Below the pieces are notes generated by a model. That model was not told the DNA's origin. It did no database searches and worked only from the letters and a program-made list of their open reading frames with translations. DNA of 64,000 nucleotides, taken from assembly GCA_032250735.1 (NCBI GenBank), contig JAVVEP010000008.1:1775-65774 (forward strand), written 5' to 3'. Numbering within the stretch: the stretch's first letter is position 1; every line of letters begins with the position of its first letter. Shown one piece after another: positions 1 through 9,829 of the stretch. This DNA is from Gammaproteobacteria bacterium. GTDB taxonomy: Bacteria > Pseudomonadota > Gammaproteobacteria > SZUA-152. The position numbers and the translations under genes are program-made.

Positions 1-1398
1 GCCGGCACTGGTGACTCGCACAAATTCCGGCGTAGTGCGCATCTTGTCAATCGTCGCGCAGCCGGTATAACCCATGCTGGAACGAATACCGCCGAGCAGC
101 TGATGGACCACCGGCGCCAGCGGGCCCTTGAAGGGCACGCGGCCTTCAATACCTTCTGGCACCAGCTTGTCGGCCTTGCTGCCTTCCTGGAAATAACGGT
201 CGCTGGAGCCCTCGGCACCGGTCATGGCCCCCAGCGATCCCATCCCACGATAGGATTTGTAGGAACGCCCCTGAAACAGCTCCACCTCACCCGGCGCCTC
301 CTCGGTGCCCGCAAACATGCTGCCGATCATGATGGAATAGGCGCCGGCCACCAGGGCCTTGGCTACATCGCCGGAGTAGCGGATACCACCGTCGGCGATC
401 AGGGGCACGCCGGTGCCGATCAGCGCAGTCGCCACGTTGTCGATCGCGGTGATCTGCGGTACGCCGACGCCGGCCACGATACGGGTGGTGCAGATGGAAC
501 CGGGACCAATGCCCACCTTCACACCGTCGGCGCCGGCCGCCACCAGGGCCCTGGCCGCATCAGCGGTGGCGATATTGCCGCCGATCACCTGCACCTGCGG
601 GAAATTCTTCTTGACCCAGCTGACGCGATCCAGCACGCCCTGCGAATGACCGTGGGCGGTGTCCACCACCACCACGTCCACCCCGGCCTCGACCAGGGCC
701 GCAACGCGCTCTGCGGTGCCGTCGCCGGTACCCACCGCCGCGCCCACCCGCAGCCGGCCCTGGCTGTCCTTGCAGGCATTGGGATATTCCGAGGCCTTCT
801 GGATGTCCTTGACGGTGATCAGGCCGCGCAGCCGAAAATTATCATCGACCACCAGCACCTTCTCTATGCGGTAATTGTGCAGCAGGGCCAGCACTTCGTC
901 GTTAGTGGCCCCCTCTTTTACCGTCACCAGTTTGTCTTTACCGGTCATGATGCTGGAAACGGGGCTGTCGAAGCGGGTCTCGAAGCGCAGATCACGCCCG
1001 GTGACGATACCGACCAGTTCCTCGCCATCCACCACCGGCACGCCGGAGATATTGTGGGCGCGGGTCAGGGCCAGTACGTCACGGATACTGGCATTGGGGT
1101 TCACCGAAATGGGGTCCTTGATCACCCCGCTCTCGTATTTCTTCACCAGCCGCACCTGTTCCGCCTGCTGCTCGCCGGTCATATTTTTGTGAATGATGCC
1201 GATACCGCCCTCCTGCGCCATGCTGATGGCCAGGCGTGCCTCGGTCACAGTGTCCATGGCGGCGGAAATCAGCGGAATATTCAGGGTGATCTCCCGTGTC
1301 AGTTGGGTGACCAGGCTCACTTCCTTGGGCATGACGGTAGAATGGGCGGGAATCAGTAAAACATCATCGAAAGTAAGGGCTTCTTGAGCTATACGCAT
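1..1398 (-). CDS. guaB: IMP dehydrogenase (3' end runs off window start)
   Basis: Minus-strand translation from ATG at 1398 reads [24 protein letters not shown]...[10 protein letters not shown]...CBS region...[15 protein letters not shown], typical IMPDH. The listed + ORF 103..1359 (G/A/H-rich) is its antisense shadow. Confidence 0.9.
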
Positions 1399-1644: not shown

Positions 1645-1968
1645 ATGAACAAATCTTTGATTTTTGGTGCCCTGATCTTCGCCCTCAGTGGTTGCTCAAT
1701 GTTTAGCGGTGGCGACTCTGCAGGTTCCGCTAACGCCGCTGCCGCCAATTCGGCTATCGCCGCTGCTGAGGCCGCGCTGGAAAAGGCCCGTGGCGTTGAG
1801 GGTGAATGGCGTGATGCCGACAAGAAGATGCTCAAGGCCGCCAAGGCTGCTGCCAGCAAGGGTGAGTTTGAAGAGGCGATCAAGCTGGCCGACAAGGCCA
1901 AGTTTGAGGGCGAAATGGGCTACACACAGGCCATGCAACAGAAGGACGCTGGACCCTGGTTGTTCTAA
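1645..1968 (+). CDS. small lipoprotein (Ala/Lys-rich, helical)
   Basis: GGAGGAGG SD 6 nt upstream. N-terminus MNKSLIFGALIFALSGCS is a lipobox signal peptide. Followed by a strong hairpin terminator. Confidence 0.6.
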   Translation: MNKSLIFGALIFALSGCSMFSGGDSAGSANAAAANSAIAAAEAALEKARGVEGEWRDADKKMLKAAKAAASKGEFEEAIKLADKAKFEGEMGYTQAMQQKDAGPWLF

Positions 1969-2048
1969 CGCCGGTTTTTTGGGGACGGCCTTAGCGTAAC
2001 GGTACTATCAGTACCGGCCCCGTTGTCGGCCCGCTCTAAAAGATCACC

Positions 2049-2086
2049 AAAAAGGCAGACTGCCCCGGCAGACTGCCTTTTTTTAT
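2049..2086 (+). terminator. intrinsic terminator (A-run/GC hairpin/T-run)
   Basis: aaaaaggcagactgccccggcagactgccttttttt: near-perfect inverted arms followed by T7 run, directly downstream of lipoprotein gene. Confidence 0.8.
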
Positions 2087-2127
2087 GCCTCACGTTCGCG
2101 ACAGCCTTCAACCACCAAAATCACGCA

Positions 2128-2300
2128 GATCGGGATACACTATGCCCATGCCGCAGACGCCAGCCCCAGAATTGACCCACGCACCCGAGCGCAAGATATA
2201 CAGCGTTTCGATGCTGATTTACCCCGTGCCGGTGCAAGGGGCGGAGGCGCCACCCTCCATCGTCGAGGCCATGCACCGCCATTTTCATCTCAGACAATGA
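2128..2300 (+). pseudogene. xseA remnant (5' end fused to an internal xseA piece; mosaic, non-functional)
   Basis: 2128-2212 is ~90% identical to the xseA start region at 8442-8530 (MPQTPAPE..EREIYSVSML). 2213-2285 matches xseA 8990-9060 (LIYPVPVQGVEAPPAIVEA). The reading frame ends in TGA overlapping the ATG of the next gene (ATGA at 2297-2300). Confidence 0.8.
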
Positions 2301-3139
2301 AAATCGCATACTGCGGCTATGACTTCTTCAGCGAGTGTCTGCAGGCATTATTGTCCAGGGGCGACGATGTCTATCGCGTGTTCACCTTCGAGTGCGATAA
2401 CCGTTTTGATTTCAATCACAACATAACCGAAATCAGCCGGCAATATTCTCTGCCGTTAACGGATCGACCAATCGGCAAAAACGACCTGGAACAATTGCGG
2501 CAGGAAGGTTGCGAGCTGGTGATCACCGCAGGCTACCGCTACAAGGTTCCGGACTTGTCCTCAGTCGGTATCAAAGGCATCAATATCCACCCCACTCTGT
2601 TGCCGGTGGGCAGGGGACCCTGGCCGCTTCCGTGGACGATTTTATCCGGCCAGCAACGCAGTGGCGTGACGATACACAAACTGACTCCGGACTTTGATGC
2701 GGGCGACATCCTGGTGCAGCGCGAGTTTGCGCTGGAAGCCAATGAAAACCTTGAGTCTCTCAGCGCCAAAACCCAACTCCAGGCCAAGGCGATGCTGACC
2801 GATCTCATGGATAATTTTACGGACGCGTGGCAAAGCGCCCGGCCGCAGGGGGAGGAATACAGTGCCTGGCCACGGCCTTCCATCGCCGATCGCACCCTGG
2901 ATTGGAATGCCGGCGTGGCGAAGCTGGATACCCTCTGCCGGGCTTTCGGCAAAATGGGATGTTATGGAAAATTCGATGGCAAAATCTGGATTGTCTACAG
3001 GCTCGTCGCCTGGCCGGCCCATCACGATTACGAGAGCGGCGCGGTCGTGCACCAGACGAACACAGAAATGATCGTGGCGGCCGCTGAAGGCCTTGTCAGC
3101 CTTCAGTATTTTGAACCTGCATCGTTGATAGCAGGCTAG
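2297..3139 (+). CDS. formyltransferase-family protein (Fmt/ArnA-N-like catalytic domain, no Fmt C-terminal domain)
   Basis: 280 aa with HPTLLPVGRGPWPLPWTILSG...GVTIHKLTPDFDAGDIL, the formyl-transferase SLLP/His/Asp catalytic signature. Lower GC than flanks. Confidence 0.75.
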   Translation: MKIAYCGYDFFSECLQALLSRGDDVYRVFTFECDNRFDFNHNITEISRQYSLPLTDRPIGKNDLEQLRQEGCELVITAGYRYKVPDLSSVGIKGINIHPTLLPVGRGPWPLPWTILSGQQRSGVTIHKLTPDFDAGDILVQREFALEANENLESLSAKTQLQAKAMLTDLMDNFTDAWQSARPQGEEYSAWPRPSIADRTLDWNAGVAKLDTLCRAFGKMGCYGKFDGKIWIVYRLVAWPAHHDYESGAVVHQTNTEMIVAAAEGLVSLQYFEPASLIAG

Positions 3140-3153
3140 CGGCCAGTGGTGCA

Positions 3154-4929
3154 ATGACTCATAAATTTGAACGATACCTGGCGTGGCAGAAACGGATCGC
3201 GCGGTTTTTTCTGCCCTATTTAAAGCCGGACCATACCAAGCTGTATCTCCTGAGCGCCTTCAGCCTGCTCATGACCGCCACCAATGCCTTCTTGATCTGG
3301 AAACTCGGCACGGCCGTGTCGCAGATCAGCGGAGGAGAATTCGGCCAGCTGAATAATACCTTGCTGATGATCGCCGCGCTGGCTTTGCTTAACCAGGTGC
3401 TACGTATTGCCTACGCGTATGTCTACCAGCGCCTAAGCCTCGCCTTCGTCGACAGGCTCAGGGGCAAAATGTTCGAGCACATCATGGAGGTTTCGGTTCC
3501 CATTCTGCAGCGCTTCAAGAAGGGCGACTTGATGGCCCGACTGAGCAGCGATGTGGACCGTGCCCTGACCTATGTGATTAATCTGCCACTCAACCTATTT
3601 GAGAACATCACTGTATTTGTTGCCTATGCCGTTGTGCTGCTATGGATCGACTGGAAGTTATCTCTGATTGCGCTGACCATGGCCCCCCTCTTTTTTCTGT
3701 CCCAGTTATATGTGGCGCCAAAAAGCGGCGAAATTTCCCGCCAATTCACCAAGGAACGGGTCGAGCTGGCCAACATCGAGGAGCAGACGCTGAGTAATTT
3801 GCGGGGCATCAGCACCTTCAATAGCGAGCTGTTCATGCGCGATACGCACAAGACCCAGTTTGATAGCGCGCGGAAGTGGGCGTTGAAAACCAGAGAGATT
3901 CAGATTCTCTATAACTCCCTGTTTACCGCGCTACTGTATTTTGCGGGTGTCGTAGTCGTCTACAGCGGCATCGCGGAAATCGAGTCGGGACAATTAGCCA
4001 TTGGTGCGCTGGTCAGCTTTCTGATTTATATCCGCAACATCACCGGGCCCATTCGCACCCTGGCGCGCATACCGATTACGTTGCAATCCGACCGCGTTGC
4101 GGCGGAGCGTCTGATGGAAATCCTGGCAATGGAGCCCGCCGTCGAGGACAGAGAAAGCGGCCGGTCGCTGCGTGTGCCGCACGGTGACATTCTGTTCAAG
4201 GATGTGTCGTTCACCTACCCGAATCAGGACCGGCCGGTATTTTCCCGGCTTTCCGCTCAGATCCGTGCCGGTGAATCCGTTGCCCTGGTCGGGCCGAGCG
4301 GGGCCGGCAAGTCTACCTTTGCCGGTTTGTTGTTACGCTTCCATGATCCACAGCAGGGATCCATCTGCATCGACGGCGTGGACATCAAGTCCGTCAGCCT
4401 GCGATCGCTGCGCAATCAGATCTCCATCGTCTGGCAGGAACCGTTTTTGGTCAACGGCAGCATTCGGCAGAATTTTTACCTGGCAAAACCGGATGCGACG
4501 GAAGCGCAGATGCAGGATGCCTGCAACTCCAGTTATGCCTGGGAATTCGTCGCCGGCCTGGAGCATGGTTTGGACACTGTCATCGGCGCCAACGGCATTG
4601 AGTTATCGGCCGGGCAACGGCAACGTCTGGCCATTGCCCAGGCCTTTCTGCGTGATACGCCGCTATTGATTCTGGATGAGGCCTCATCCGCGCTCGACAG
4701 CCGATCCGAGCAAATGGTTGCGGACGCCTTGCAGGCCCTGCGCAAGCAACGCACCACGGTGATTATCGCCCATCGCTTTTCTTCCATCCGCAGTGTGGAC
4801 AGGATTCTCTATATCGATGGAAAGGGTTGCCTGACAGTGGGCACGCACCAGGAGTTACTTGATCAGCATAGTGAATACAAGGCTGCCGTCGATTGGCAAA
4901 TGGCGGAGCGGCCAGGGGATGTCGGTTAA
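3154..4929 (+). CDS. ABC exporter, fused permease-ATPase (MsbA/ABCB type), no peptidase domain
   Basis: 591 aa. N-terminal 6-TM region, then Walker A GPSGAGKST, signature LSAGQRQRLAIAQAF, Walker B LLILDEASSALD. 15 nt downstream of formyltransferase (same operon). Confidence 0.9.
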   Translation: MTHKFERYLAWQKRIARFFLPYLKPDHTKLYLLSAFSLLMTATNAFLIWKLGTAVSQISGGEFGQLNNTLLMIAALALLNQVLRIAYAYVYQRLSLAFVDRLRGKMFEHIMEVSVPILQRFKKGDLMARLSSDVDRALTYVINLPLNLFENITVFVAYAVVLLWIDWKLSLIALTMAPLFFLSQLYVAPKSGEISRQFTKERVELANIEEQTLSNLRGISTFNSELFMRDTHKTQFDSARKWALKTREIQILYNSLFTALLYFAGVVVVYSGIAEIESGQLAIGALVSFLIYIRNITGPIRTLARIPITLQSDRVAAERLMEILAMEPAVEDRESGRSLRVPHGDILFKDVSFTYPNQDRPVFSRLSAQIRAGESVALVGPSGAGKSTFAGLLLRFHDPQQGSICIDGVDIKSVSLRSLRNQISIVWQEPFLVNGSIRQNFYLAKPDATEAQMQDACNSSYAWEFVAGLEHGLDTVIGANGIELSAGQRQRLAIAQAFLRDTPLLILDEASSALDSRSEQMVADALQALRKQRTTVIIAHRFSSIRSVDRILYIDGKGCLTVGTHQELLDQHSEYKAAVDWQMAERPGDVG

Positions 4930-4972
4930 TCAAGCAAGAGCAGAAAATCCGCTCCGTTGACGAGGCAAATAA

Positions 4973-5000
4973 AAAGGGCATTGCCTTGGCAATGCCCTTT
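4973..5000. terminator. bidirectional hairpin terminator between convergent genes
   Basis: aaagggcattgccttggcaatgcccttttg: 11-bp perfect stem flanked by A-run and T-run. A second hairpin ctcagcgg...ccgctgag lies at 5010-5040. Confidence 0.7.
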
Positions 5001-5076
5001 TGTGGACGCTCAGCGGACTAACTGAAATCTACCGCTGAGTGTGGTGCATCACGCGCTAATGCGTGATGCGGGCCGG

Positions 5077-5289
5077 TTAGGCGCCACCGCCCATACCACC
5101 ACCCATACCGCCGCCCATACCACCAGCGGCTGCGGCTGGTGCCGGGGCTGGTGCTGGAGCTGGTGCCGGAGCTGCTGCAGCGGGTGCCGGAGCGGCGGCC
5201 ATGCCGCCCATACCACCACCCATGCCACCACCCATGCCACCCCCCATACCGCCGCCCATACCACCACCGCCTCCCATTCCTCCACCCAT
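5077..5289 (-). CDS. 70-aa low-complexity protein composed only of Gly, Met, Ala, Pro: (MGGG)7-AAAPAPAAAAPAPAPAPAPAPAAAA-(GGM..MGGG)3-A
   Basis: AAGGAGAG SD 5 nt upstream of the ATG at 5289; TAA at 5077 followed by a hairpin. Third-position variation among GGN and GCN/CCN codons is synonymous in this frame but nonsynonymous in the opposite-strand His/Thr frame. A longer GTG start at 5424 would add a 45-aa non-repetitive N-terminal extension. Confidence 0.5.
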   Translation of the reverse strand: MGGGMGGGGGMGGGMGGGMGGGMGGGMGGMAAAPAPAAAAPAPAPAPAPAPAAAAGGMGGGMGGGMGGGA

Positions 5290-5913
5290 AACGCTCTCCT
5301 TTGCAATATCCGAATATTGATTAAGTATGTGTTTCACGTTCATGACCGAGTATCCGTGGCCTGTGAAACACGGCTCCTGATTGCCGATTTTATTGCTGAT
5401 TGATTGGTCGGCAATCGCGCGCACGAGACCACGCGCTTCCGGAGACTAGGATATTTATGTCCAATGGTCAACATTTGATGGTCAAAATCCACGATAAAGC
5501 GGTCGGCCTAATACCGGTATTTTTTCGATGCTTATAACCCGGCAATAGCCCGGCAATCACTCAGGGGCGATGATGTTGCGAGCGAGACGTGGGTACAACA
5601 GTGTGATTATTAAAGTATTTTAGTCCTGCACCGGCTTTCGTCAGCGCTATCTCGTTGTACCGGCCAGTTGTGCCTACCAATTGTGCCGGCCAAATTCACC
5701 CATTCTCATCTCCGACTGTTATTCTGGCCTGTGTGAAATTACATTATGATTTTTCTAGCTCTGGCCGGACTTTCCGGCTTTGTGCAGAACCGAGGGGGAA
5801 TTTGCTGGCTTGCCGGACCTGCTTCGCATACCATTTTTATGGTTATAGGGGTGCGCACAATGGCGAGTTAGGAAGGCATATCCCATCGAATCCACACGCA
5901 AAGGTCTTCACTC

Positions 5914-6711
5914 ATGTCAATTGGAATAGAAACGGCCGGACGCCCGGCGCCACTCATTCTTCCCACCACCGAACCCGTGGCGGATTTTCATCCCGAGCCC
6001 GACGATTTCTGCTTCTGTAACAGCGGCAAGCGATTCGGTGGTTGTTGCGGATCCACCGACCTGGTGCGCCCGCCGCCTTATGGGCTGTTCATGTTCGAAA
6101 ATTTTCTCGATCCCAAGCAGGCCCGGGAGTTGACCGACTATGCCGAGCAGTGCGAGGGCGAGCGCCTGATGGTGATCGATAATATACAGTCCACCCCCGA
6201 CAACATCGTCAAGGTGGAAGACCCGCGGCGTATTACCGAACGGGTCAAGTTGGGTGCCAGACGCAAGGAAATCCAGGCGATGATGGGGCGGGCTTTTATC
6301 GATCTGGCGCAACGGTGTGTCGGCGCCAAACTGGATTGGTACGAGCTGCCCGATTTGATGCGGTACCGGCAAGGGGGATTTTATGTCCGGCACGCCGACA
6401 GCCAGAACAAGGATGAGGCGACCAACACGTGGCGCAAGGTGATCGATCGTGATCTCAGCATGCTCATCTACTTAAACGATGGCTATGAAGGCGGCGAGCT
6501 GAGCTTTTACAAATTCAATTATCAGATCCGGCCGCGGGCCGGTGCGGCGGTCCTGTTCCCCTCGGACCATCGCTATTTGCACCAGGCCGAAACCCTTAAA
6601 AGCGGTGTCCGCTATGCCCTGGTTAGCTGGGCCTCCGTGCAAGGGGTGCCGAAGATTGCGTCGCAGCCGCCCCAATGCGCCGTGCCTGTGGAATATAAGC
6701 CGGGTCAATAG
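5914..6711 (+). CDS. SEC-C motif / 2OG-Fe(II) oxygenase (PKHD/prolyl-4-hydroxylase-like)
   Basis: N-terminal CFCNSGKRFGGCCGS is a SEC-C zinc motif. C-terminal HADSQ...GGELSF...VLFPSDHRYLHQAETLKSGVRYALVSW matches the HxD...H...R facial triad/2OG-binding pattern of the P4H/PKHD hydroxylase fold. Confidence 0.8.
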   Translation: MSIGIETAGRPAPLILPTTEPVADFHPEPDDFCFCNSGKRFGGCCGSTDLVRPPPYGLFMFENFLDPKQARELTDYAEQCEGERLMVIDNIQSTPDNIVKVEDPRRITERVKLGARRKEIQAMMGRAFIDLAQRCVGAKLDWYELPDLMRYRQGGFYVRHADSQNKDEATNTWRKVIDRDLSMLIYLNDGYEGGELSFYKFNYQIRPRAGAAVLFPSDHRYLHQAETLKSGVRYALVSWASVQGVPKIASQPPQCAVPVEYKPGQ

Positions 6712-7889
6712 CCCAGCAAATCGCCGGGCAGTCCGTCCTCGGGGTAATCTGCTGCCAAAAGTTTTCGCGCCAATTCCTCCGCCGCCGCCAGCTCCGCCTG
6801 ATGTGCGGACAATAGTGCTGTTATTTCTCCGTCCCGTTGTTGCGGGCTGTAGGTGAATTTACTGTTCTTGGAATAGACGCCGAGCAGCGGCGCCATGGCC
6901 TGCTCAAGCGTTGTCCCCTCGATCGGCATCAAACCGAACCAGTCTGCGCATCGTGCAACGGCGGTGTAGGGATTGGCGAGCATGTGATTGAACTCGAGAC
7001 TGCGTACGCGGGCCGGCATGCTGCGGTAGGCCTTGTGGAACAGTGCGATGTTGTACGACCAATACAATGCCGCCAGTTCCCCATAGGCGTCCTCGGCCAC
7101 CGTGAAGTCCGGGCCGAGCCCCAGCAGTTGATTGATGGGCTGGCGCAACGCGGCGTAGCGCTGCGCGATCCACTGCTTGCGGTTATTCGCCTTGAGGCAG
7201 CCGGCGAGAAATTCTTGCAGCGGGGTGTGCATAAACAGCAGAGGGGCGTCCGCATGCCGCTCGATCATGGCCAGCATGAGGGGGTTGGCATAATCGTTGG
7301 CCTTGACCACCGCCATCTGCTGCGCATCAAAACGGCGTGACAACAATGCCATGACGCGCCGGTACCAGGCATCTTTATCCTGGGGGGAATTGGCCGGATT
7401 GCGCAGATATGCCAGCAGGTTGCCCAGCAGTTCCGGCTCGCGGATCGGCAGCGTGTGATACGCCGCGTCGAGGGCCTGGGACATGAGTGTTGAACCGCAA
7501 AAGGCGGTGTGAAAGATGAAGGCGGTTTGTTGACCGGCGATTTTGTCACAGGCCGACCGTAGCCATGCCAGGTCAGTTTGGATAATGCAGCTACCTTTGA
7601 TGCGTCCCGGGTCCATAAACACGCTGTCCCGATACGTCTGCGGCGACATCATGATGAAGTAGCTCTGGTATTCGGCAAAATTTACCCGCGCCGGAAACAG
7701 GGCGGGGCTGGCATCGATGTGCTCCAGCGCCTCCTGCAATTGCGCAGTCAGCGGCTCGTCTGCGACAACACCTTCGGTGGTTATAGCGGCCACGATGTGG
7801 GGCTGCGAGCGCTCGGCCTTGCCGCAACAGGCTCCGTAGACCAGGCCGCTGCCGCACGGGCAAGGCATCTCACTCGATTCGATATCCAT
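6705..7889 (-). CDS. SEC-C motif protein with ~370-aa C-terminal domain of unknown function (possibly P-loop/sulfotransferase-like; unverified)
   Basis: True start MDIESSEMPCPCGSGLVYGACCGK (ATG 7889, SD AAGGGAGA). The ORF-track N-terminal extension to 8144 is read-through. Converges on and overlaps the previous gene by 7 nt. HTAFCGST resembles a PAPS-binding loop, but only weakly. Confidence 0.6.
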   Translation of the reverse strand: MDIESSEMPCPCGSGLVYGACCGKAERSQPHIVAAITTEGVVADEPLTAQLQEALEHIDASPALFPARVNFAEYQSYFIMMSPQTYRDSVFMDPGRIKGSCIIQTDLAWLRSACDKIAGQQTAFIFHTAFCGSTLMSQALDAAYHTLPIREPELLGNLLAYLRNPANSPQDKDAWYRRVMALLSRRFDAQQMAVVKANDYANPLMLAMIERHADAPLLFMHTPLQEFLAGCLKANNRKQWIAQRYAALRQPINQLLGLGPDFTVAEDAYGELAALYWSYNIALFHKAYRSMPARVRSLEFNHMLANPYTAVARCADWFGLMPIEGTTLEQAMAPLLGVYSKNSKFTYSPQQRDGEITALLSAHQAELAAAEELARKLLAADYPEDGLPGDLLGY

Positions 7890-7921
7890 TGTTATTCTCC
7901 CTTCTCTATCCTGGCGAGCCG

Positions 7922-8340
7922 TCAATAGCCCAGGTTCGGCGCCAGCCAATACTCCGCGAACATGCGCGTCATGTCCTTGCGTTGCGCGTAGTCGTCGACC
8001 TGATCCTGGTTGATTTTGCCTACCGTGAAATAGGCGGCCTCGGGGTGCGAAAAATAGAAACCGCTGACGGCGGCGGTGGGCAACGAGGCCATGGCCTCGG
8101 CGAACCAGCTGCCGGTGCTTTCCTTCACCGCCATGAGATCCCACAGCAGGTTCTTTTCGGTGTGCTCGGGGCAGGCAGGATAACCGGGCGCGGGGCGAAT
8201 GCCCTGGTATTTCTCATAGATGAGATCGGTGTTGTCGAAGTACTCGTTCGGCGCGTAGCCCCAGATCTCCCTGCGCGCCTTCCGGTGCAAAAGTTCAGCG
8301 AAGCTCTCGGCGAAACCGCGAGGAAGTATAAACCCCCTGT
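7922..8340 (-). pseudogene. methionine synthase (metH) C-terminal fragment, ~139 codons, 5' truncated
   Basis: Translation ...HRKARREIWGYAPNEYFDNTDLIYEKYQGIRPAPGYPACPEHTEKNLLWDLMAVKE...VSGFYFSHPEAAYFTVGKINQDQVDDYAQRKDMTRMFAEYWLAPNLGY* is the conserved reactivation-domain C-terminus of B12-dependent MetH. Similarity stops abruptly near 8340, where lipoprotein-like sequence begins. Confidence 0.75.
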
Positions 8341-8365
8341 TCGCTCTAAAACCACCCCGGACCAC

Positions 8366-8440
8366 GCTGAAAAGGCCCGTGGCGTTAAGGGTGAATGGCG
8401 TAATGCCGACAAGGCCAAGTTTGAGGGCGAAATAGGCTAC
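8366..8440 (+). pseudogene. remnant of the lipoprotein gene (internal and 3' deletions) abutting xseA
   Basis: EKARGVKGEWRNADKAKFEGEIGYA corresponds to lipoprotein residues at 1778-1935, with the ~100 nt between two gccgacaag repeats deleted. Confidence 0.7.
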
Positions 8441-8455
8441 GCATCGCGATACACT

Positions 8456-9829
8456 ATGCGCATGCCGCAGACACCAGCCCCTGAATCGACCCTTGCACCC
8501 GAGCGCGAGATCTACAGCGTTTCGATGCTGAACAATGCCGCGCGCGACCTGTTGGAGCGGGAATTTCCGCTGATCTGGGTGGAGGGTGAGATCTCCAACC
8601 TCGCCCGCCCCGCCTCCGGCCACCTCTATTTCAGCCTCAAGGATGCCGACGCCCAGCTGCGCTGCGCCATGTTCAAGCTGCGCAACCGGCTGGTGGGTTT
8701 CCGCCCCGACAATGGTCAGCAGGTACTGGTGCGCGGACGGCTCAGCCTCTATCCGGCGCGGGGTGACTACCAGCTCATTGTCGAACACATGGAAGAGGCC
8801 GGCGACGGCGCCCTGCGCCGCCAGTTCGAGCTACTCAAACAACGCCTGGGTCACGAAGGCCTGTTCGATGCCGGGAGCAAACAACCCCTACCGGCCCTGC
8901 CCCGCCGACTGGGGGTGATCACCTCACCCAGCGGGGCGGCCATCCGCGACATCCTCAGCGTGCTCAGGCGGCGCTTTCCAAGCATCCCGGTGCTGATTTA
9001 CCCCGTGCCGGTGCAAGGGGTGGAGGCGCCACCCGCCATCGTCGAGGCGCTGCGGACGGCGAATACCCGCCGGGAATGCGATCTGCTGATCCTGGCCCGC
9101 GGCGGTGGCTCACTGGAAGACCTGTGGGCCTTCAACGACGAGGCGGTGGCCCGCGCCATCCACGCCAGCACCCTTCCGGTGGTCTGCGGCGTGGGCCATG
9201 AGGTCGACGTCACCATCGCCGATTTTGTGGCCGATGTGCGTGCGCCCACGCCCTCGGCGGCGGCCGAGCTGGTCAGCCCGGATCGCAACGAGTGGCTGGA
9301 CAGTTTTGCGGCCTGGCAGCAGCGCCTGACACGCAGTTGGCAGACCCAGCTGGCCCGGCGTCAGCAACACCTGGACTGGCTACGCCGGCAACTGAAACAC
9401 CCGGGACAGCGACTGCGTGAACGGGCCCAACGGCTGGATGAGCTGGAGCAGCGTCTCAGGCTGGCGCGGCTGGGCCGACTGCGCCAGCTGCAGGCCCGGC
9501 TGAACACCCTGCGCGCGCGGCTGTATGGCCACTCGCCGGTGCAGCCGCTGCGCGCGACCCGCCTGCGACTGGACAGCCTGCAGCACCGCAGTCAGCGCGC
9601 CATTCGCGCCAGACTGACCCAACAGCGCGCCCGGCTTGGCAATCTCAGCCGGGCGCTGGATGCGGTCAGCCCGCTGGCCACCCTCGGCCGCGGCTACGCC
9701 ATCGTGCAGAAACCCGACGGCAAGGTCGTGCGCCGCGTCGACGAGGTGTGCGTGGGGGAGCGCATCAACACCCGGCTCGGTAGCGGCCGTCTCGACTGTC
9801 GTGTCGAGGCCGTGCACGGGGAGGATTGA
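8456..9829 (+). CDS. xseA: exodeoxyribonuclease VII large subunit
   Basis: MRMPQTPAPE...IWVEGEISNLARPASGHLYFSLKDADAQLRCAMF (OB fold)...GVITSPSGAAIRD...ARGGGSLEDLWAFNDE, then coiled-coil Arg/Gln-rich tail. ORF-track start at 7889 is upstream read-through. Confidence 0.9.
   Translation: MRMPQTPAPESTLAPEREIYSVSMLNNAARDLLEREFPLIWVEGEISNLARPASGHLYFSLKDADAQLRCAMFKLRNRLVGFRPDNGQQVLVRGRLSLYPARGDYQLIVEHMEEAGDGALRRQFELLKQRLGHEGLFDAGSKQPLPALPRRLGVITSPSGAAIRDILSVLRRRFPSIPVLIYPVPVQGVEAPPAIVEALRTANTRRECDLLILARGGGSLEDLWAFNDEAVARAIHASTLPVVCGVGHEVDVTIADFVADVRAPTPSAAAELVSPDRNEWLDSFAAWQQRLTRSWQTQLARRQQHLDWLRRQLKHPGQRLRERAQRLDELEQRLRLARLGRLRQLQARLNTLRARLYGHSPVQPLRATRLRLDSLQHRSQRAIRARLTQQRARLGNLSRALDAVSPLATLGRGYAIVQKPDGKVVRRVDEVCVGERINTRLGSGRLDCRVEAVHGED

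What the first reader, a model, noticed from the sequence alone, without database searches (positions are those of the whole stretch)
5077..5289. 70-codon ORF encoding only G, M, A and P: (MGGG)n-(AP)n-(MGGG)n
The ORF has a near-consensus SD (AAGGAGAG), an in-frame TAA and a downstream hairpin. It contains no charged, aromatic or polar residues at all. The MGGG periodicity (M-x3-M) resembles Met-rich Cu(I)/Ag(I)-binding tracts of CopA/PcoA/CusF-type proteins and the (GGM)n tail of GroEL. The central 25 residues are pure Ala/Pro. Synonymous third-position variation (GGT/GGC/GGA/GGG, GCT/GCA/GCC, CCG/CCA) supports selection on this frame. The opposite strand would encode a His/Thr/Cys/Trp tract, with substitutions that are nonsynonymous there. 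Alternatively a GTG at 5424 would prepend a 45-aa normal-complexity leader (MRAIADQSISNKIGNQEPCFTGHGYSVMNVKHILNQYSDIAKESV), giving a leader+core layout reminiscent of RiPP precursors.
Basis: seen in the sequence. Interest (0 to 1): 0.8.

Follow-up and report, generated by a model that had tools for sequence, protein, structure and literature searches.

The report
Gly/Met/Ala/Pro mini-peptide in modification cassette
The odd 70-codon reading frame is very likely a real, previously unannotated small gene whose four-letter peptide sits in a conserved, mobile gene cassette with a proline-hydroxylase-like enzyme, a sulfotransferase-like enzyme and an export pump, which suggests a new kind of modified, exported bacterial peptide.

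Summary
Window 5289->5077 (minus strand) encodes a 70-aa peptide of G33/A18/M11/P8, with an AAGGAG Shine-Dalgarno site, a TAA stop and a strong terminator.

It is not a chance ORF or a plain minisatellite. The same architecture, M(G/M/H)n-(AP)n-[optional (G/M/H)n], recurs in 13 independent gammaproteobacterial or metagenomic lineages. In every complete copy it is bracketed by SD-ATG...TAA, and the length variants seen are in frame.

The peptide gene always lies beside three other genes:
- an MsbA/ABCB-type exporter.

Both enzymes start with a SecA-type CXCX8CC zinc knuckle. In the window the block is a 6.3-kb insertion flanked by a duplicated junction.

The proposed 45-aa leader (GTG 5424) is refuted, because homologues have in-frame stops 4-8 codons upstream of the ATG.

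The most likely reading is a leaderless, disordered peptide whose (AP)n rod is hydroxylated on proline, possibly then sulfated, and exported. Cu(I) binding by the Met/His arms is plausible but untested. No description of this system was found in the literature or in family libraries.

The parts
5077..5289 (-). Small gene for a 70-aa leaderless peptide: (Gly/Met)30 - (Ala/Pro)25 - (Gly/Met)15. ATG at 5289-5287, TAA at 5079-5077.
   Evidence: The family is conserved in 13 lineages with the same architecture and position.
5296..5301 (-). Shine-Dalgarno site AAGGAG, six nucleotides upstream of the ATG.
   Evidence: An SD (AAGGAG/GGAGG) lies 5-9 nt before the ATG in all nine complete homologues tested, and in L167-L171. 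It is the only conserved element of the upstream region.
5387..5414 (-). Sigma-70-like promoter candidate (TTGCCG-16-TAAAAT), about 100 nt upstream of the ATG.
   Evidence: 9 of 12 matches. This is a consensus match only and is not conserved in the alignment.
4967..5001 (-). Intrinsic terminator: a 13-bp GC-rich stem plus TTTTTATTT. It is bidirectional and is shared with the convergent ABC gene.
   Evidence: -20.7 kcal/mol. Equivalent strong hairpin/T-run terminators follow the peptide gene in L004, L162 and L164.
5046..5069 (-). First downstream hairpin (GCATCACGC-ATTAGC-GCGTGATGC).
   Evidence: -15.2 kcal/mol.
5914..6711 (+). 2OG/Fe(II) oxygenase (265 aa), peptidyl-prolyl-hydroxylase-like, with an N-terminal SecA-type CXCX8CC knuckle (C33-C45). 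It is divergent from the peptide gene.
6705..7889 (-). SEC-C knuckle (C10-C22) + small alpha/beta domain + sulfotransferase-fold domain (394 aa). The true start is MDIESSEMPCPCGSG, not GTG 8144.
3154..4929 (+). MsbA/ABCB-type half-transporter exporter (591 aa). It has no C39 peptidase domain and is convergent with the peptide gene.
   Evidence: It is syntenic with the peptide in 11 of 13 full-cassette lineages.
2297..3139 (+). Fmt/ArnA-like formyltransferase (280 aa). It is an accessory member of the cassette, present in 5 of 13 lineages.
   Evidence: Present in the window, L161, L164, L002 and L084.
7922..8314 (-). Truncated 3' remnant of metH (the last ~113 positions of the activation domain), carried inside the inserted block.
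   Evidence: Pfam PF02965, profile positions 160-272 of 273. A full-length metH occupies the same position in L162.
1780..2217 (.). Left copy of the duplicated lipoprotein-gene/xseA 5' junction that flanks the cassette.
   Evidence: Direct repeats D2-D4, 90-96% identical to 8369-8531. An xseA fragment is detected by Pfam.
8369..8531 (.). Right copy of the duplicated junction: lipoprotein-gene fragments plus the start of the intact xseA at 8456.

Best explanation
The ORF is a genuine monocistronic gene with its own SD, ATG, TAA and terminator. It encodes a leaderless, intrinsically disordered 70-residue peptide: two flexible Gly/Met arms around a stiff (Ala-Pro)n rod. The peptide is the cargo of a conserved, horizontally mobile cassette.

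Proposed steps, all inferred:
1. The divergently encoded P4H-like 2OG/Fe(II) oxygenase hydroxylates prolines of the (AP)n rod. Every Pro there precedes Ala, which is the context preferred by its closest structural relative, the PBCV-1 P4H.
2. The TPST-like sulfotransferase-fold protein then modifies the product. The most parsimonious reaction is O-sulfation of the new hydroxyls, because the unmodified peptide has no Ser, Thr, Tyr, Lys or Cys to accept anything.
3. Both enzymes are brought to the substrate by their identical N-terminal SecA-type zinc knuckles. The knuckles may dock on the ribosome or nascent chain, or on a SecB-like partner.
4. Where present, the Fmt-like formyltransferase caps the only amine, the N-terminus.
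5. The MsbA/ABCB-type exporter moves the product across the inner membrane.
6. In the envelope the thioether (Met) and imidazole (His) arms could bind soft metals such as Cu(I), or act as an oxidant sink.

My graded confidence is as follows:

| Claim | Confidence |
|---|---|
| Real coding gene | ~0.9 |
| Functional member or cargo of the cassette | ~0.7 |
| Pro hydroxylation | ~0.55 |
| Sulfation | ~0.3 |
| Metal binding | ~0.25 |
For: Coding:
- SD plus ATG and TAA bracket the low-complexity tract exactly in 9 of 9 complete copies tested. The same holds in four later loci, and L174 also has ATG...TAA.
- The sense frame has the lowest amino-acid entropy, with 4-5 residue types from 10-17 codons.
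- The competing antisense frame has no start at all in L167, an internal stop in L083 and no consistent SD.
- Length variants are in frame: L168 vs L169 differ by 12 nt and L170 vs L171 by 3 nt.
- Gene callers predicted the ORF in L162, L164, L167-L171 and L174.
- Strong terminators follow the gene.
- Wobble GC3 is 0.47 against 0.68-0.73 for the neighbouring cassette genes, which indicates synonymous-site selection in this register.

Cassette:
- The order ABC -> <-peptide, oxygenase -> <-SEC-C protein is conserved.
- The peptide is present in 11 of 13 full-cassette lineages and on two truncated contigs. It is absent wherever the ABC gene is absent or only a distant oxygenase is present.
- In the window the block is delimited by a duplicated junction.

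Enzymes:
- CXCX8CC is present in both enzymes. The SecA metal-binding domain binds ribosomes and SecB (PMC6620043).

Metal hint: His occupies Met-like positions in L004, L083 and L174.
Against: - There are no expression or mass-spectrometry data.
- The two closest relatives (L161 and L081, oxygenase 80-81% identical) keep the formyltransferase (L161), ABC, oxygenase and SEC-C genes but have no peptide gene in the 4-10 kb available. Either the peptide is encoded elsewhere in those genomes or the enzymes have another substrate.
- Oxygenase/SEC-C pairs without a peptide or an ABC gene exist (L085, L087).
- The sulfotransferase call rests on fold only. Sequence similarity is marginal (E 0.08-1.2).
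- From memory of TPST/SULT motifs, the catalytic Arg/Lys just before the 'SG(T/S)T' loop appears to be an invariant Phe here (AFCGSTL).
- No literature precedent for sulfated hydroxyproline was found.
- The exporter has no peptidase domain, and no membrane-fusion or outer-membrane partner is conserved. Export beyond the periplasm is therefore unsupported.
- Met number and spacing are not conserved, which weakens a specific metal site.
Confidence: 0.55

Rival explanations
1. The peptide is real and translated but is not modified by its neighbours. It acts on its own as a Met/His-rich soft-metal (Cu(I)/Ag(I)) buffer, a sacrificial methionine antioxidant, or a GroEL-tail-like flexible hydrophobic peptide. 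On this reading the oxygenase and sulfotransferase-fold protein act on another substrate.
For: - Met is always present, and His replaces Met at some positions.
- L161 and L081 keep the enzymes without the peptide, and L085 and L087 have the enzyme pair alone. So the enzymes are not strictly dependent on this peptide.
- A pure Gly/Met second copy without any Pro exists (L002b).
Against: - Tight, position-specific linkage of the peptide gene to the oxygenase gene holds across oxygenase identities of 57-100%.
- Every primary copy retains an (AP)n tract that matches the known preference of the closest P4H structure.
- No copper, silver or Msr genes are conserved nearby.
- There is no signal peptide for a periplasmic metal role.
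- Met spacing is variable, with long poly-Gly runs and Arg in the tract.
Confidence: 0.2
2. The ORF works through its translation rather than its product. It would be a Gly/Met/Ala/Pro-codon-rich sensor ORF whose ribosome occupancy or stalling (tRNA charging, one-carbon/fMet status, EF-P) modulates the divergent oxygenase promoter or, through read-through antisense transcription, the convergent ABC gene.
For: - The codon repertoire is extremely restricted.
- A formyltransferase and, in some genomes, metH lie nearby.
- The flanking intergenic region is long (250-640 nt) and otherwise unexplained.
Against: - The gene is followed directly by a strong terminator and has no downstream cistron.
- The intergenic region has no conserved structure or sequence, and there is no Rfam hit.
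- Pro-Pro stalling motifs are essentially absent.
- The three-part architecture, rather than just the codon content, is conserved.
Confidence: 0.07
3. The tract is a non-coding GC-rich minisatellite (12-nt and 6-nt periods), and the ORF is an accident of repeats that lack stop codons.
For: - TRF finds 12-, 6-, 18- and 21-nt tandem periods across 5084-5286.
- All six frames of the tract are open in the window.
- The exact peptide sequences are absent from a 15-billion-protein collection.
Against: - SD-ATG...TAA bracket the tract exactly in every complete copy examined, although the nucleotide sequences are too diverged to align outside it.
- The two natural length variants are multiples of 3.
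- Other frames acquire stops in L002, L083, L084 and L164.
- The amino-acid architecture is conserved while codons differ.
Confidence: 0.04
4. This is a RiPP precursor with a 45-aa normal-complexity leader starting at GTG 5424, followed by the low-complexity core.
For: The 115-aa ORF is open in the window.
Against: - In-frame stops lie 4-8 codons upstream of the ATG in L084, L162, L083, L004 and L002b.
- The upstream region shows no conservation at the DNA level or in translation.
- The SD sits immediately before the internal ATG in all copies tested.
- The exporter lacks a leader peptidase domain.
Confidence: 0.02
5. The coding frame is the wobble-sharing antisense frame, giving a P/I/M/A/G-rich protein on the plus strand.
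For: Its amino-acid entropy is almost as low as that of the sense frame, and it is open in most loci.
Against: It has no start codon in L167, an internal stop in L083, no consistent start position or SD, and variable ends.
Confidence: 0.02

Closest known systems
RaxX / RaxST / RaxB of Xanthomonas oryzae (a sulfated RiPP with a TPST-like sulfotransferase and an ABC exporter; from my own knowledge)
   Same: A small ribosomal peptide is encoded beside a tyrosylprotein-sulfotransferase-fold enzyme and an ABC exporter in a Gram-negative bacterium.
   Different: - RaxX has a leader, a normal-complexity core and a Tyr acceptor.
- RaxB carries a C39 peptidase domain and works with a membrane-fusion protein and an outer-membrane partner.
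- Here there is no leader, no Tyr, no peptidase domain and no fusion protein. There is an additional P4H-like oxygenase, and both enzymes carry SEC-C knuckles.
PBCV-1 viral prolyl 4-hydroxylase and plant/algal P4Hs acting on Ala-Pro / Ser-Pro repeats of hydroxyproline-rich glycoproteins and arabinogalactan proteins
   Same: - These enzymes hydroxylate proline in leaderless, PPII-forming X-Pro repeats.
- PBCV-1 P4H prefers Pro that precedes Ala, which is exactly the (AP)n context here.
   Different: - Sequence identity is only about 19-22%.
- The bacterial enzyme has an added N-terminal CXCX8CC knuckle.
- In plants the next step is O-glycosylation, whereas here the partner has a sulfotransferase fold.
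- The substrate here is a 55-85-aa free peptide, not a domain of a wall protein.
Plant post-translationally modified peptides (PSY, RGF/GLV, CLE), which combine TPST sulfation and P4H hydroxylation
   Same: The same pair of enzyme classes (P4H plus TPST fold) decorates small secreted peptides (review PMC11253845, found).
   Different: Plant peptides are cut from pre-pro-proteins, are sulfated on Tyr and have specific receptor-binding sequences. Here the peptides are low-complexity, have no Tyr and are bacterial.
Met-rich Cu(I)/Ag(I) motifs (CusF, CopC/PcoC, PcoE/SilE, the CueO insert, Ctr1 'Mets' motifs; from my own knowledge)
   Same: Repeated Met (and His) separated by small residues. Thioether and imidazole ligands suit an oxidising periplasm.
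   Different: Those are motifs within folded or signal-peptide-bearing proteins encoded in copper or silver operons. Here there is no signal peptide, no metal-homeostasis neighbours, and the Met number and spacing vary.
GroEL C-terminal (GGM)n tail
   Same: Gly-Gly-Met repeats. These are reported to adopt PPII-like, flexible conformations (title of PMC12571646, seen).
   Different: The GroEL tail has about 13 residues at the end of a 57-kDa chaperonin. Here the tract is free-standing, 11-53 residues long, and fused to an (AP)n rod. (MGGG)n also occurs as a generic linker in many viral proteins, so the resemblance is compositional.
Gly-rich microcins and leaderless bacteriocins (microcin B17, class IIb microcins, enterocin L50-type; from my own knowledge)
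   Same: Small Gly-rich or leaderless ribosomal peptides exported by dedicated ABC transporters. Leaderless bacteriocins keep a formyl-Met.
   Different: There is no double-glycine leader, no heterocyclisation or siderophore genes, no immunity gene, no charge or amphipathicity, and no C39 domain.

Membership tests
Protein-coding small gene (as opposed to a non-coding repeat) | A ribosome-binding site, start and stop that bracket the tract consistently across homologues | tested here: met
   9 of 9 complete copies tested have SD 5-9 nt before the ATG and a TAA stop. Four further copies show the same, and L174 has ATG...TAA.
Protein-coding small gene (as opposed to a non-coding repeat) | Length variation restricted to multiples of three | tested here: met
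   L168/L169 differ by 12 nt and L170/L171 by 3 nt. Only two natural pairs were available, so the sample is small.
Protein-coding small gene (as opposed to a non-coding repeat) | Evidence of transcription and translation | not testable with these tools
   No RNA-seq, Ribo-seq or proteomics data were available. There is only a promoter-like site and terminators.
RiPP precursor (canonical leader + core) | A conserved leader or follower peptide used for enzyme recognition | tested here: not met
   There is no conserved sequence upstream. Stops lie 4-8 codons before the ATG in five copies. The whole product is low-complexity.
RiPP precursor (canonical leader + core) | Co-localised tailoring enzymes and a dedicated exporter | tested here: met
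   The oxygenase, sulfotransferase-fold protein and ABC exporter are syntenic in 11 of 13 full-cassette lineages.
RiPP precursor (canonical leader + core) | A demonstrated post-translational modification of the peptide | not testable with these tools
   This requires mass spectrometry of the co-expressed peptide.
Peptidyl-prolyl 4-hydroxylase (2OG/Fe(II) oxygenase, PF13640) - for the neighbour at 5914-6711 | Double-stranded beta-helix fold closest to P4H/PHD enzymes | tested here: met
   [not shown]
Peptidyl-prolyl 4-hydroxylase (2OG/Fe(II) oxygenase, PF13640) - for the neighbour at 5914-6711 | An HxD...H iron triad and a basic 2OG-binding residue | tested here: met
   H160, D162, H223 and R233 are invariant in 17 sequences.
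Peptidyl-prolyl 4-hydroxylase (2OG/Fe(II) oxygenase, PF13640) - for the neighbour at 5914-6711 | Hydroxylation of peptidyl proline | not testable with these tools
   Inferred from the fold and from the adjacent (AP)n substrate candidate.
PAPS-dependent sulfotransferase (TPST-like) - for the neighbour at 6705-7889 | Sulfotransferase alpha/beta fold | tested here: met
   [not shown]
PAPS-dependent sulfotransferase (TPST-like) - for the neighbour at 6705-7889 | 5'-phosphosulfate-binding loop with a catalytic Lys/Arg (PKSGTT / PRSGTT) and a 3'-phosphate motif | tested here: inconclusive
   An invariant strand-loop-helix 'HTAFCGSTLM' lies in the P-loop position and keeps G-S-T-L. However, Phe sits where I recall Arg/Lys in TPST and SULT (from memory). 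Profile-sequence searches gave only E 0.08-1.2 matches to plant SOTs over residues ~281-344.
PAPS-dependent sulfotransferase (TPST-like) - for the neighbour at 6705-7889 | A tyrosine acceptor in the substrate (for TPST proper) | tested here: not met
   No peptide of the family contains Tyr. If the peptide is the substrate, the acceptor must be something else, such as hydroxyproline.
SecA-type metal-binding domain (SEC-C, PF02810) | A CXCX8C(C/H) motif | tested here: met
   Oxygenase C33-F-C35-x8-C44-C45. SEC-C protein C10-P-C12-x8-C21-C22. Pfam and PDB hits to SecA and YchJ. The Cys residues are invariant.
Met-rich Cu(I)/Ag(I)-binding proteins (CusF/CopC/PcoE-type) | Conserved Met/His ligand spacing | tested here: inconclusive
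   M-x3-M dominates in the window. Spacing varies from MG to M-G25 across the family, and His or Arg substitute.
Met-rich Cu(I)/Ag(I)-binding proteins (CusF/CopC/PcoE-type) | Genomic association with copper or silver homeostasis genes, and periplasmic targeting | tested here: not met
   No cop, cus, cue or sil genes occur in any of the neighbourhoods listed. There is no signal peptide.
Met-rich Cu(I)/Ag(I)-binding proteins (CusF/CopC/PcoE-type) | Metal binding | not testable with these tools
   This needs a Cu(I)/Ag(I) competition assay or ITC.
GroEL C-terminal tail | (GGM)n located at the C-terminus of a chaperonin | tested here: not met
   This is a free-standing 70-aa ORF with no chaperonin domain.
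Class II microcin / double-glycine bacteriocin | A double-glycine leader and a C39-peptidase ABC exporter | tested here: not met
   There is no leader. The exporter starts directly with the transmembrane domain and matches MsbA/ABCB.

The most novel reading that the evidence does not exclude
This is a new class of leaderless, low-complexity ribosomal peptides. A Gly/Met(His) - (Ala-Pro)n - Gly/Met(His) chain would be hydroxylated on proline, perhaps while still on the ribosome. The new hydroxyls would then be O-sulfated by two enzymes that share a SecA-type zinc knuckle as a docking module. The exported product would be an anionic polyproline-II rod with thioether arms, which might serve as a periplasmic or envelope Cu(I)/soft-metal or oxidant buffer. 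If true, it would be the first sulfated-hydroxyproline natural product, and the first case of SEC-C knuckles recruiting tailoring enzymes.
Probability: 0.2. Interest if true: 0.9.

Novelty: new variant of a known kind. Interest (0 to 1): 0.72.

Why it matters
- **Missed genes.** It exposes a conserved family of small genes that annotation largely misses. The peptide sequences are absent from a 15-billion-protein collection, and one gene caller chose a shifted frame. Four-letter ORFs should therefore not be dismissed as repeats without comparison to other genomes.
- **An unreported enzyme pairing.** It links a bacterial prolyl-hydroxylase-like enzyme and a TPST-fold enzyme to a concrete, testable substrate. 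I found this combination reported only for plant signalling peptides. The shared SecA-type zinc knuckle suggests a role as a recruitment module for tailoring enzymes.
- **New chemistry, if the model holds.** The product would add leaderless, composition-recognised substrates to the RiPP world, and possibly hydroxyproline O-sulfate as well.
- **An easy test.** Four genes can be co-expressed in E. coli and the peptide weighed. A +16 Da or +80 Da ladder would give a yes/no answer.

Tried and rejected
- **Homology search with the peptide itself.** There were 8000 word-sharing candidates, none significant, because the composition-bias correction removes them. This was uninformative.
- **Exact look-ups.** The peptide and several homologues were not on record, so no public names or contexts could be obtained that way.
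- **Rfam on the whole window.** Nothing was found.
- **Alignment of the 250-640-nt peptide-oxygenase intergenic regions.** Nothing is conserved except the SD, so a conserved riboswitch, leader or regulator box is rejected.
- **Pfam and NCBIfam on the peptide and on the 115-aa extended ORF.** No hits.
- **Catalytic-domain profile of the SEC-C protein against PDB sequences.** Similarity was too weak to map catalytic residues. The sulfotransferase assignment therefore rests on fold.
- **Search of the outlier loci for peptides of other low-complexity compositions (L085, L087, L161, L081, L063, L073).** None were found.
- **Plasmid collection search with the SEC-C protein.** No match.
- **Viral contig scan for (MGGG)n DNA.** There were 51 hits, all internal linkers of larger proteins, and none had the cassette or the free peptide architecture. 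This rejects the idea that the motif alone defines the family.
- **Literature searches.** The terms covered Gly-Met repeats, sulfated hydroxyproline, and SEC-C + sulfotransferase + prolyl hydroxylase. Only GroEL-tail and plant-peptide papers came back, with no description of this system.
- **Attenuator idea.** I considered and rejected it because a terminator and a convergent gene follow the ORF.
- **metH adjacency as a functional link to the Met-rich peptide.** It is seen only in the window's closest clade, and in the window it is a truncated remnant. Shared ancestry of the block explains it better.
Full report
**1. The observation**

The ORF is real and lies on the minus strand, from ATG 5289-5287 to TAA 5079-5077. 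It encodes 70 residues made only of Gly (33), Ala (18), Met (11) and Pro (8). The layout is (Gly/Met)30 - (Ala/Pro)25 - (Gly/Met)15, and most Met-Met spacings are four.

AAGGAG lies six nucleotides upstream of the ATG, at 5301-5296. After the stop come two hairpins and a 13-bp stem plus T-run terminator (5001-4967, -20.7 kcal/mol). The convergent ABC gene shares that terminator.

Nothing comparable exists elsewhere in the window. With 5001-5400 removed, the simplest 60-residue stop-free stretch in any frame still uses 8 residue types, against 4 here. The DNA is a set of 12-, 6-, 18- and 21-nt tandem repeats. The real question is therefore whether it is a gene or a minisatellite.

**2. Gene or repeat?**

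Using the neighbouring oxygenase as bait, I fetched related loci from genomes, metagenomes and assemblies. A free-standing ORF with the same architecture sits in the same place, divergent from and just upstream of the oxygenase gene, in 13 independent lineages:

| Locus | Peptide |
|---|---|
| window | 70 aa |
| L001 | 76 aa |
| L002 | 57 aa, plus a second pure Gly/Met copy of 32 aa |
| L003 | truncated by the contig end |
| L004 (= L172/L173) | 55 aa |
| L083 | 65 aa |
| L084 | 58 aa |
| L162 | 85 aa |
| L164 | 69 aa |
| L167 | 77 aa |
| L168/L169 | 81/85 aa |
| L170/L171 | 82/83 aa |
| L174 | 75 aa |

The evidence that this is a gene is as follows:

- All nine complete copies tested have an SD 5-9 nt before the ATG and end in TAA. 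Four later copies show the same, and L174 also runs from ATG to TAA.
- Outside the SD, the 250-640-nt upstream regions do not align at all.
- The two pairs of near-identical contigs differ by 12 nt and 3 nt inside the tract, so both changes are in frame.
- Gene callers predicted the ORF in several assemblies.
- The sense frame always has the lowest amino-acid entropy.

One caveat applies. That antisense frame fails on other grounds. It has no start codon in L167, an internal stop in L083, and no consistent start or SD.

Codon choice in the peptide gene is also peculiar. GC3 is 0.47, against 0.68-0.73 in the adjacent cassette genes and about 0.8 in flanking housekeeping genes. It strongly prefers GGT, GCA/GCT and CCA. 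This fits selection on synonymous sites in a tract whose first two codon positions are forced to be G/C.

I conclude that it is a coding gene (about 0.9).

**3. The leader hypothesis**

The 45 codons upstream (from GTG 5424) are open in the window, but they are not conserved in any homologue. In L084, L162, L083, L004 and L002b an in-frame stop lies only 4-8 codons before the ATG. The product is therefore leaderless.

**4. The neighbourhood is a conserved cassette**

The order ABC exporter ->, <- peptide, oxygenase ->, <- SEC-C protein recurs across oxygenase identities of 57-100%. In L170/L171 the ABC gene sits on the other side.

Presence and absence follow a clean pattern:

- The peptide is present in 11 of 13 lineages that have all three protein genes.
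- It is also present on two contigs that are too short to show the ABC gene.
- It is absent from loci that have the oxygenase/SEC-C pair without the ABC gene (L085, L087). It is also absent from all loci with only a more distant oxygenase.
- The exceptions are L161 and L081, the closest relatives at 80-81% identity. There the ABC and oxygenase genes are only about 55-130 nt apart, and no peptide gene occurs in the 4-10 kb available.

A formyltransferase is an accessory member, found in the window, L161, L164, L002 and L084. A PLD-like gene accompanies the cassette in L167-L169.

In the window the block is physically delimited. Direct repeats of 90-96% identity (1780-2217 vs 8369-8531) duplicate the junction between a small lipoprotein-like gene and the 5' end of xseA. 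They lie on both sides of a 6.3-kb segment. That segment holds exactly the formyltransferase, ABC, peptide, oxygenase and SEC-C genes plus a truncated metH 3' remnant (Pfam PF02965, positions 160-272 of 273). A full-length metH lies in that position in L162. The block therefore probably arrived by recombination from a genome where the cassette neighbours metH.

**5. What the neighbours are**

*Oxygenase (265 aa).*
- It matches PF13640.
- Its best PDB sequence matches are prolyl 3- and 4-hydroxylases.
- The iron and 2OG residues H160, D162, H223 and R233 are invariant.
- PBCV-1 P4H hydroxylates Pro-Ala-Pro-Lys repeats and prefers the Pro that precedes Ala (PMC3634087). Every Pro in an (AP)n tract is in that context.

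*SEC-C protein.* The true length is 394 aa, as NCBI annotates the identical sequence.
- It has no Pfam domain beyond the knuckle.
- At the sequence level only a marginal match to plant SOT16/18 is seen.
- An invariant strand-loop-helix 'HTAFCGSTLM' occupies the phosphosulfate-loop position. From my memory of the motifs, it has Phe where TPST and SULT enzymes have the catalytic Arg/Lys. The donor and chemistry therefore remain uncertain.

*Shared knuckle.* Both enzymes begin with a perfect CXCX8CC SecA-type metal-binding motif. In SecA that module binds SecB and 70S ribosomes (PMC6620043).

*Exporter and formyltransferase.* The exporter is a generic MsbA/ABCB-type half-transporter without a peptidase domain. 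The formyltransferase is nearest to Met-tRNA formyltransferase and ArnA.

**6. The most likely mechanism**

What is shown: a conserved, mobile unit couples a leaderless G/M/A/P peptide gene to a P4H-like oxygenase, a TPST-fold protein and an exporter.

What is inferred:
- The oxygenase hydroxylates the (AP)n rod. P4Hs recognise polyproline-II repeats and need no leader.
- The sulfotransferase-fold enzyme then acts on the only acceptor that hydroxylation creates. Most family members contain no Ser, Thr, Tyr, Lys or Cys at all.
- The shared knuckle recruits both enzymes to the same place, possibly the translating ribosome.
- The formyltransferase, where present, caps the single amine.
- The ABC protein exports the product, at least to the periplasm.

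What the product does is the weakest step. Met is always retained, and His sits at Met-like positions or at the tract borders in L004, L083 and L174. That suits soft-metal (Cu(I)) binding in an oxidising compartment, or a sacrificial antioxidant role. On the other hand, Met spacing is not conserved, with runs of up to 25 Gly and Arg in L170. No metal-homeostasis genes travel with the cassette.

**7. Comparison with what is known**

The nearest systems by logic are:
- the RaxX/RaxST/RaxB sulfated RiPP of Xanthomonas;
- plant peptides that combine P4H and TPST modifications;
- P4H-modified Ala-Pro repeats of algal, plant and viral proteins.

This system differs from all of them. It has a leaderless, four-letter substrate with no Tyr. 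The P4H-like and TPST-fold enzymes are paired in a bacterium. Both enzymes carry SEC-C knuckles. The exporter has no peptidase domain.

The GroEL-tail and Mets-motif resemblances are compositional. (MGGG)n also turns up as an internal linker in about 50 viral proteins, none with this architecture.

Neither Pfam, NCBIfam, Rfam nor the searchable literature describes the peptide or the cassette. The peptide sequences are not even present in the large protein collection.

**8. Verdict**

The leader variant is refuted. The copper idea remains open.

I rate this a new variant of a known kind: a ribosomal peptide with dedicated tailoring enzymes and an exporter. Interest is about 0.7. The family is conserved, unannotated, chemically odd and directly testable with a four-gene co-expression and a mass spectrometer.

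Noticed in passing
window 1780-2217 and 8369-8531: Direct repeats (90-96% identical) duplicate the junction between a small lipoprotein-like gene (1645-1968) and the xseA 5' end. They lie on both sides of the 6.3-kb cassette. The left copy carries a scrambled xseA fragment (ORF 2085-2300). The right copy carries lipoprotein-gene fragments followed by the intact xseA (start 8456). This is a signature of insertion or recombination.
   Followed up: partly
window 7922-8314 (minus strand): A truncated metH remnant, with only the last ~113 positions of the B12-dependent methionine synthase activation domain. It sits between the SEC-C gene and xseA. L162 has a full-length metH (1224 aa) in the same place. 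Shared ancestry of the block explains this better than a functional link to the Met-rich peptide.
   Followed up: partly
window 5290-5913: An unusually long (624 nt), comparatively AT-rich (48.6% GC) divergent intergenic region between the peptide and oxygenase genes. It holds short tandem repeats at 5534-5557 (ATAACCCGGCA x2.2) and 5655-5693 (TTGTGCCGGCCAA x3). The length (250-640 nt) is kept in homologues, but the sequence is not. Possible regulator sites remain unexplained.
   Followed up: partly
L002 6485-6583 (minus strand): A second peptide gene in one locus, about 730 nt downstream of the formyltransferase gene. It is pure Gly/Met (32 aa, MGMGMGGMGGMGMGGMGMGGMGGMGMGGMGGM) with no Ala-Pro tract and has its own SD. 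The sequence just downstream is masked with N.
   Followed up: partly
L161 6871-7001 and L081 1990-2120: The two closest relatives of the window's cassette (oxygenase 80-81% identical) lack the peptide gene. The ABC and oxygenase genes are almost adjacent there, and no low-complexity ORF occurs in the available 4-10 kb. This could be loss or relocation.
   Followed up: partly
L172/L173 7627-7803 (= L004 7580-7747): The public gene call for the His-containing variant uses a GTG five nucleotides downstream and a shifted frame (VDMVVEWGTAQHRR...). The SD-preceded ATG frame (MGGHGGGMGHG...) is the one consistent with the family. This shows how such genes are mis-annotated.
   Followed up: yes
L174 (contig CDLKGN010000091.1, assembly labelled Kaarinaea lacus): A complete cassette with a canonical 75-aa peptide lies on an 11.9-kb contig of an assembly assigned to a nostocalean cyanobacterium. 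All other carriers are labelled Gammaproteobacteria or Proteobacteria. A phage-integrase gene is on the same contig. This suggests a contaminant or associated bacterium, or horizontal transfer.
   Followed up: no
viral contigs L175-L225: (MGGG)3-10 tracts are common as internal low-complexity linkers in larger proteins of giant viruses and large phages. In L190-L192 such a tract is followed by an Ala/Pro-rich stretch, inside a 635-aa protein in L190/L191.
   Followed up: partly
window 103-1359 (+): A 418-aa ORF with no Pfam or NCBIfam hit and an odd His/Gly/Asp/Ala-rich composition. It is not conserved next to the cassette in other loci and may be a spurious ORF opposite a real gene.
   Followed up: no
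window 6705-6711, 6705-8144 and 7889-9829: The oxygenase and SEC-C genes converge and their 3' ends overlap by 7 nt. The mechanical ORF list over-extends two genes: the SEC-C gene (479 aa from GTG 8144, true length 394 aa) and xseA (646 aa, true start about 8456).
   Followed up: yes
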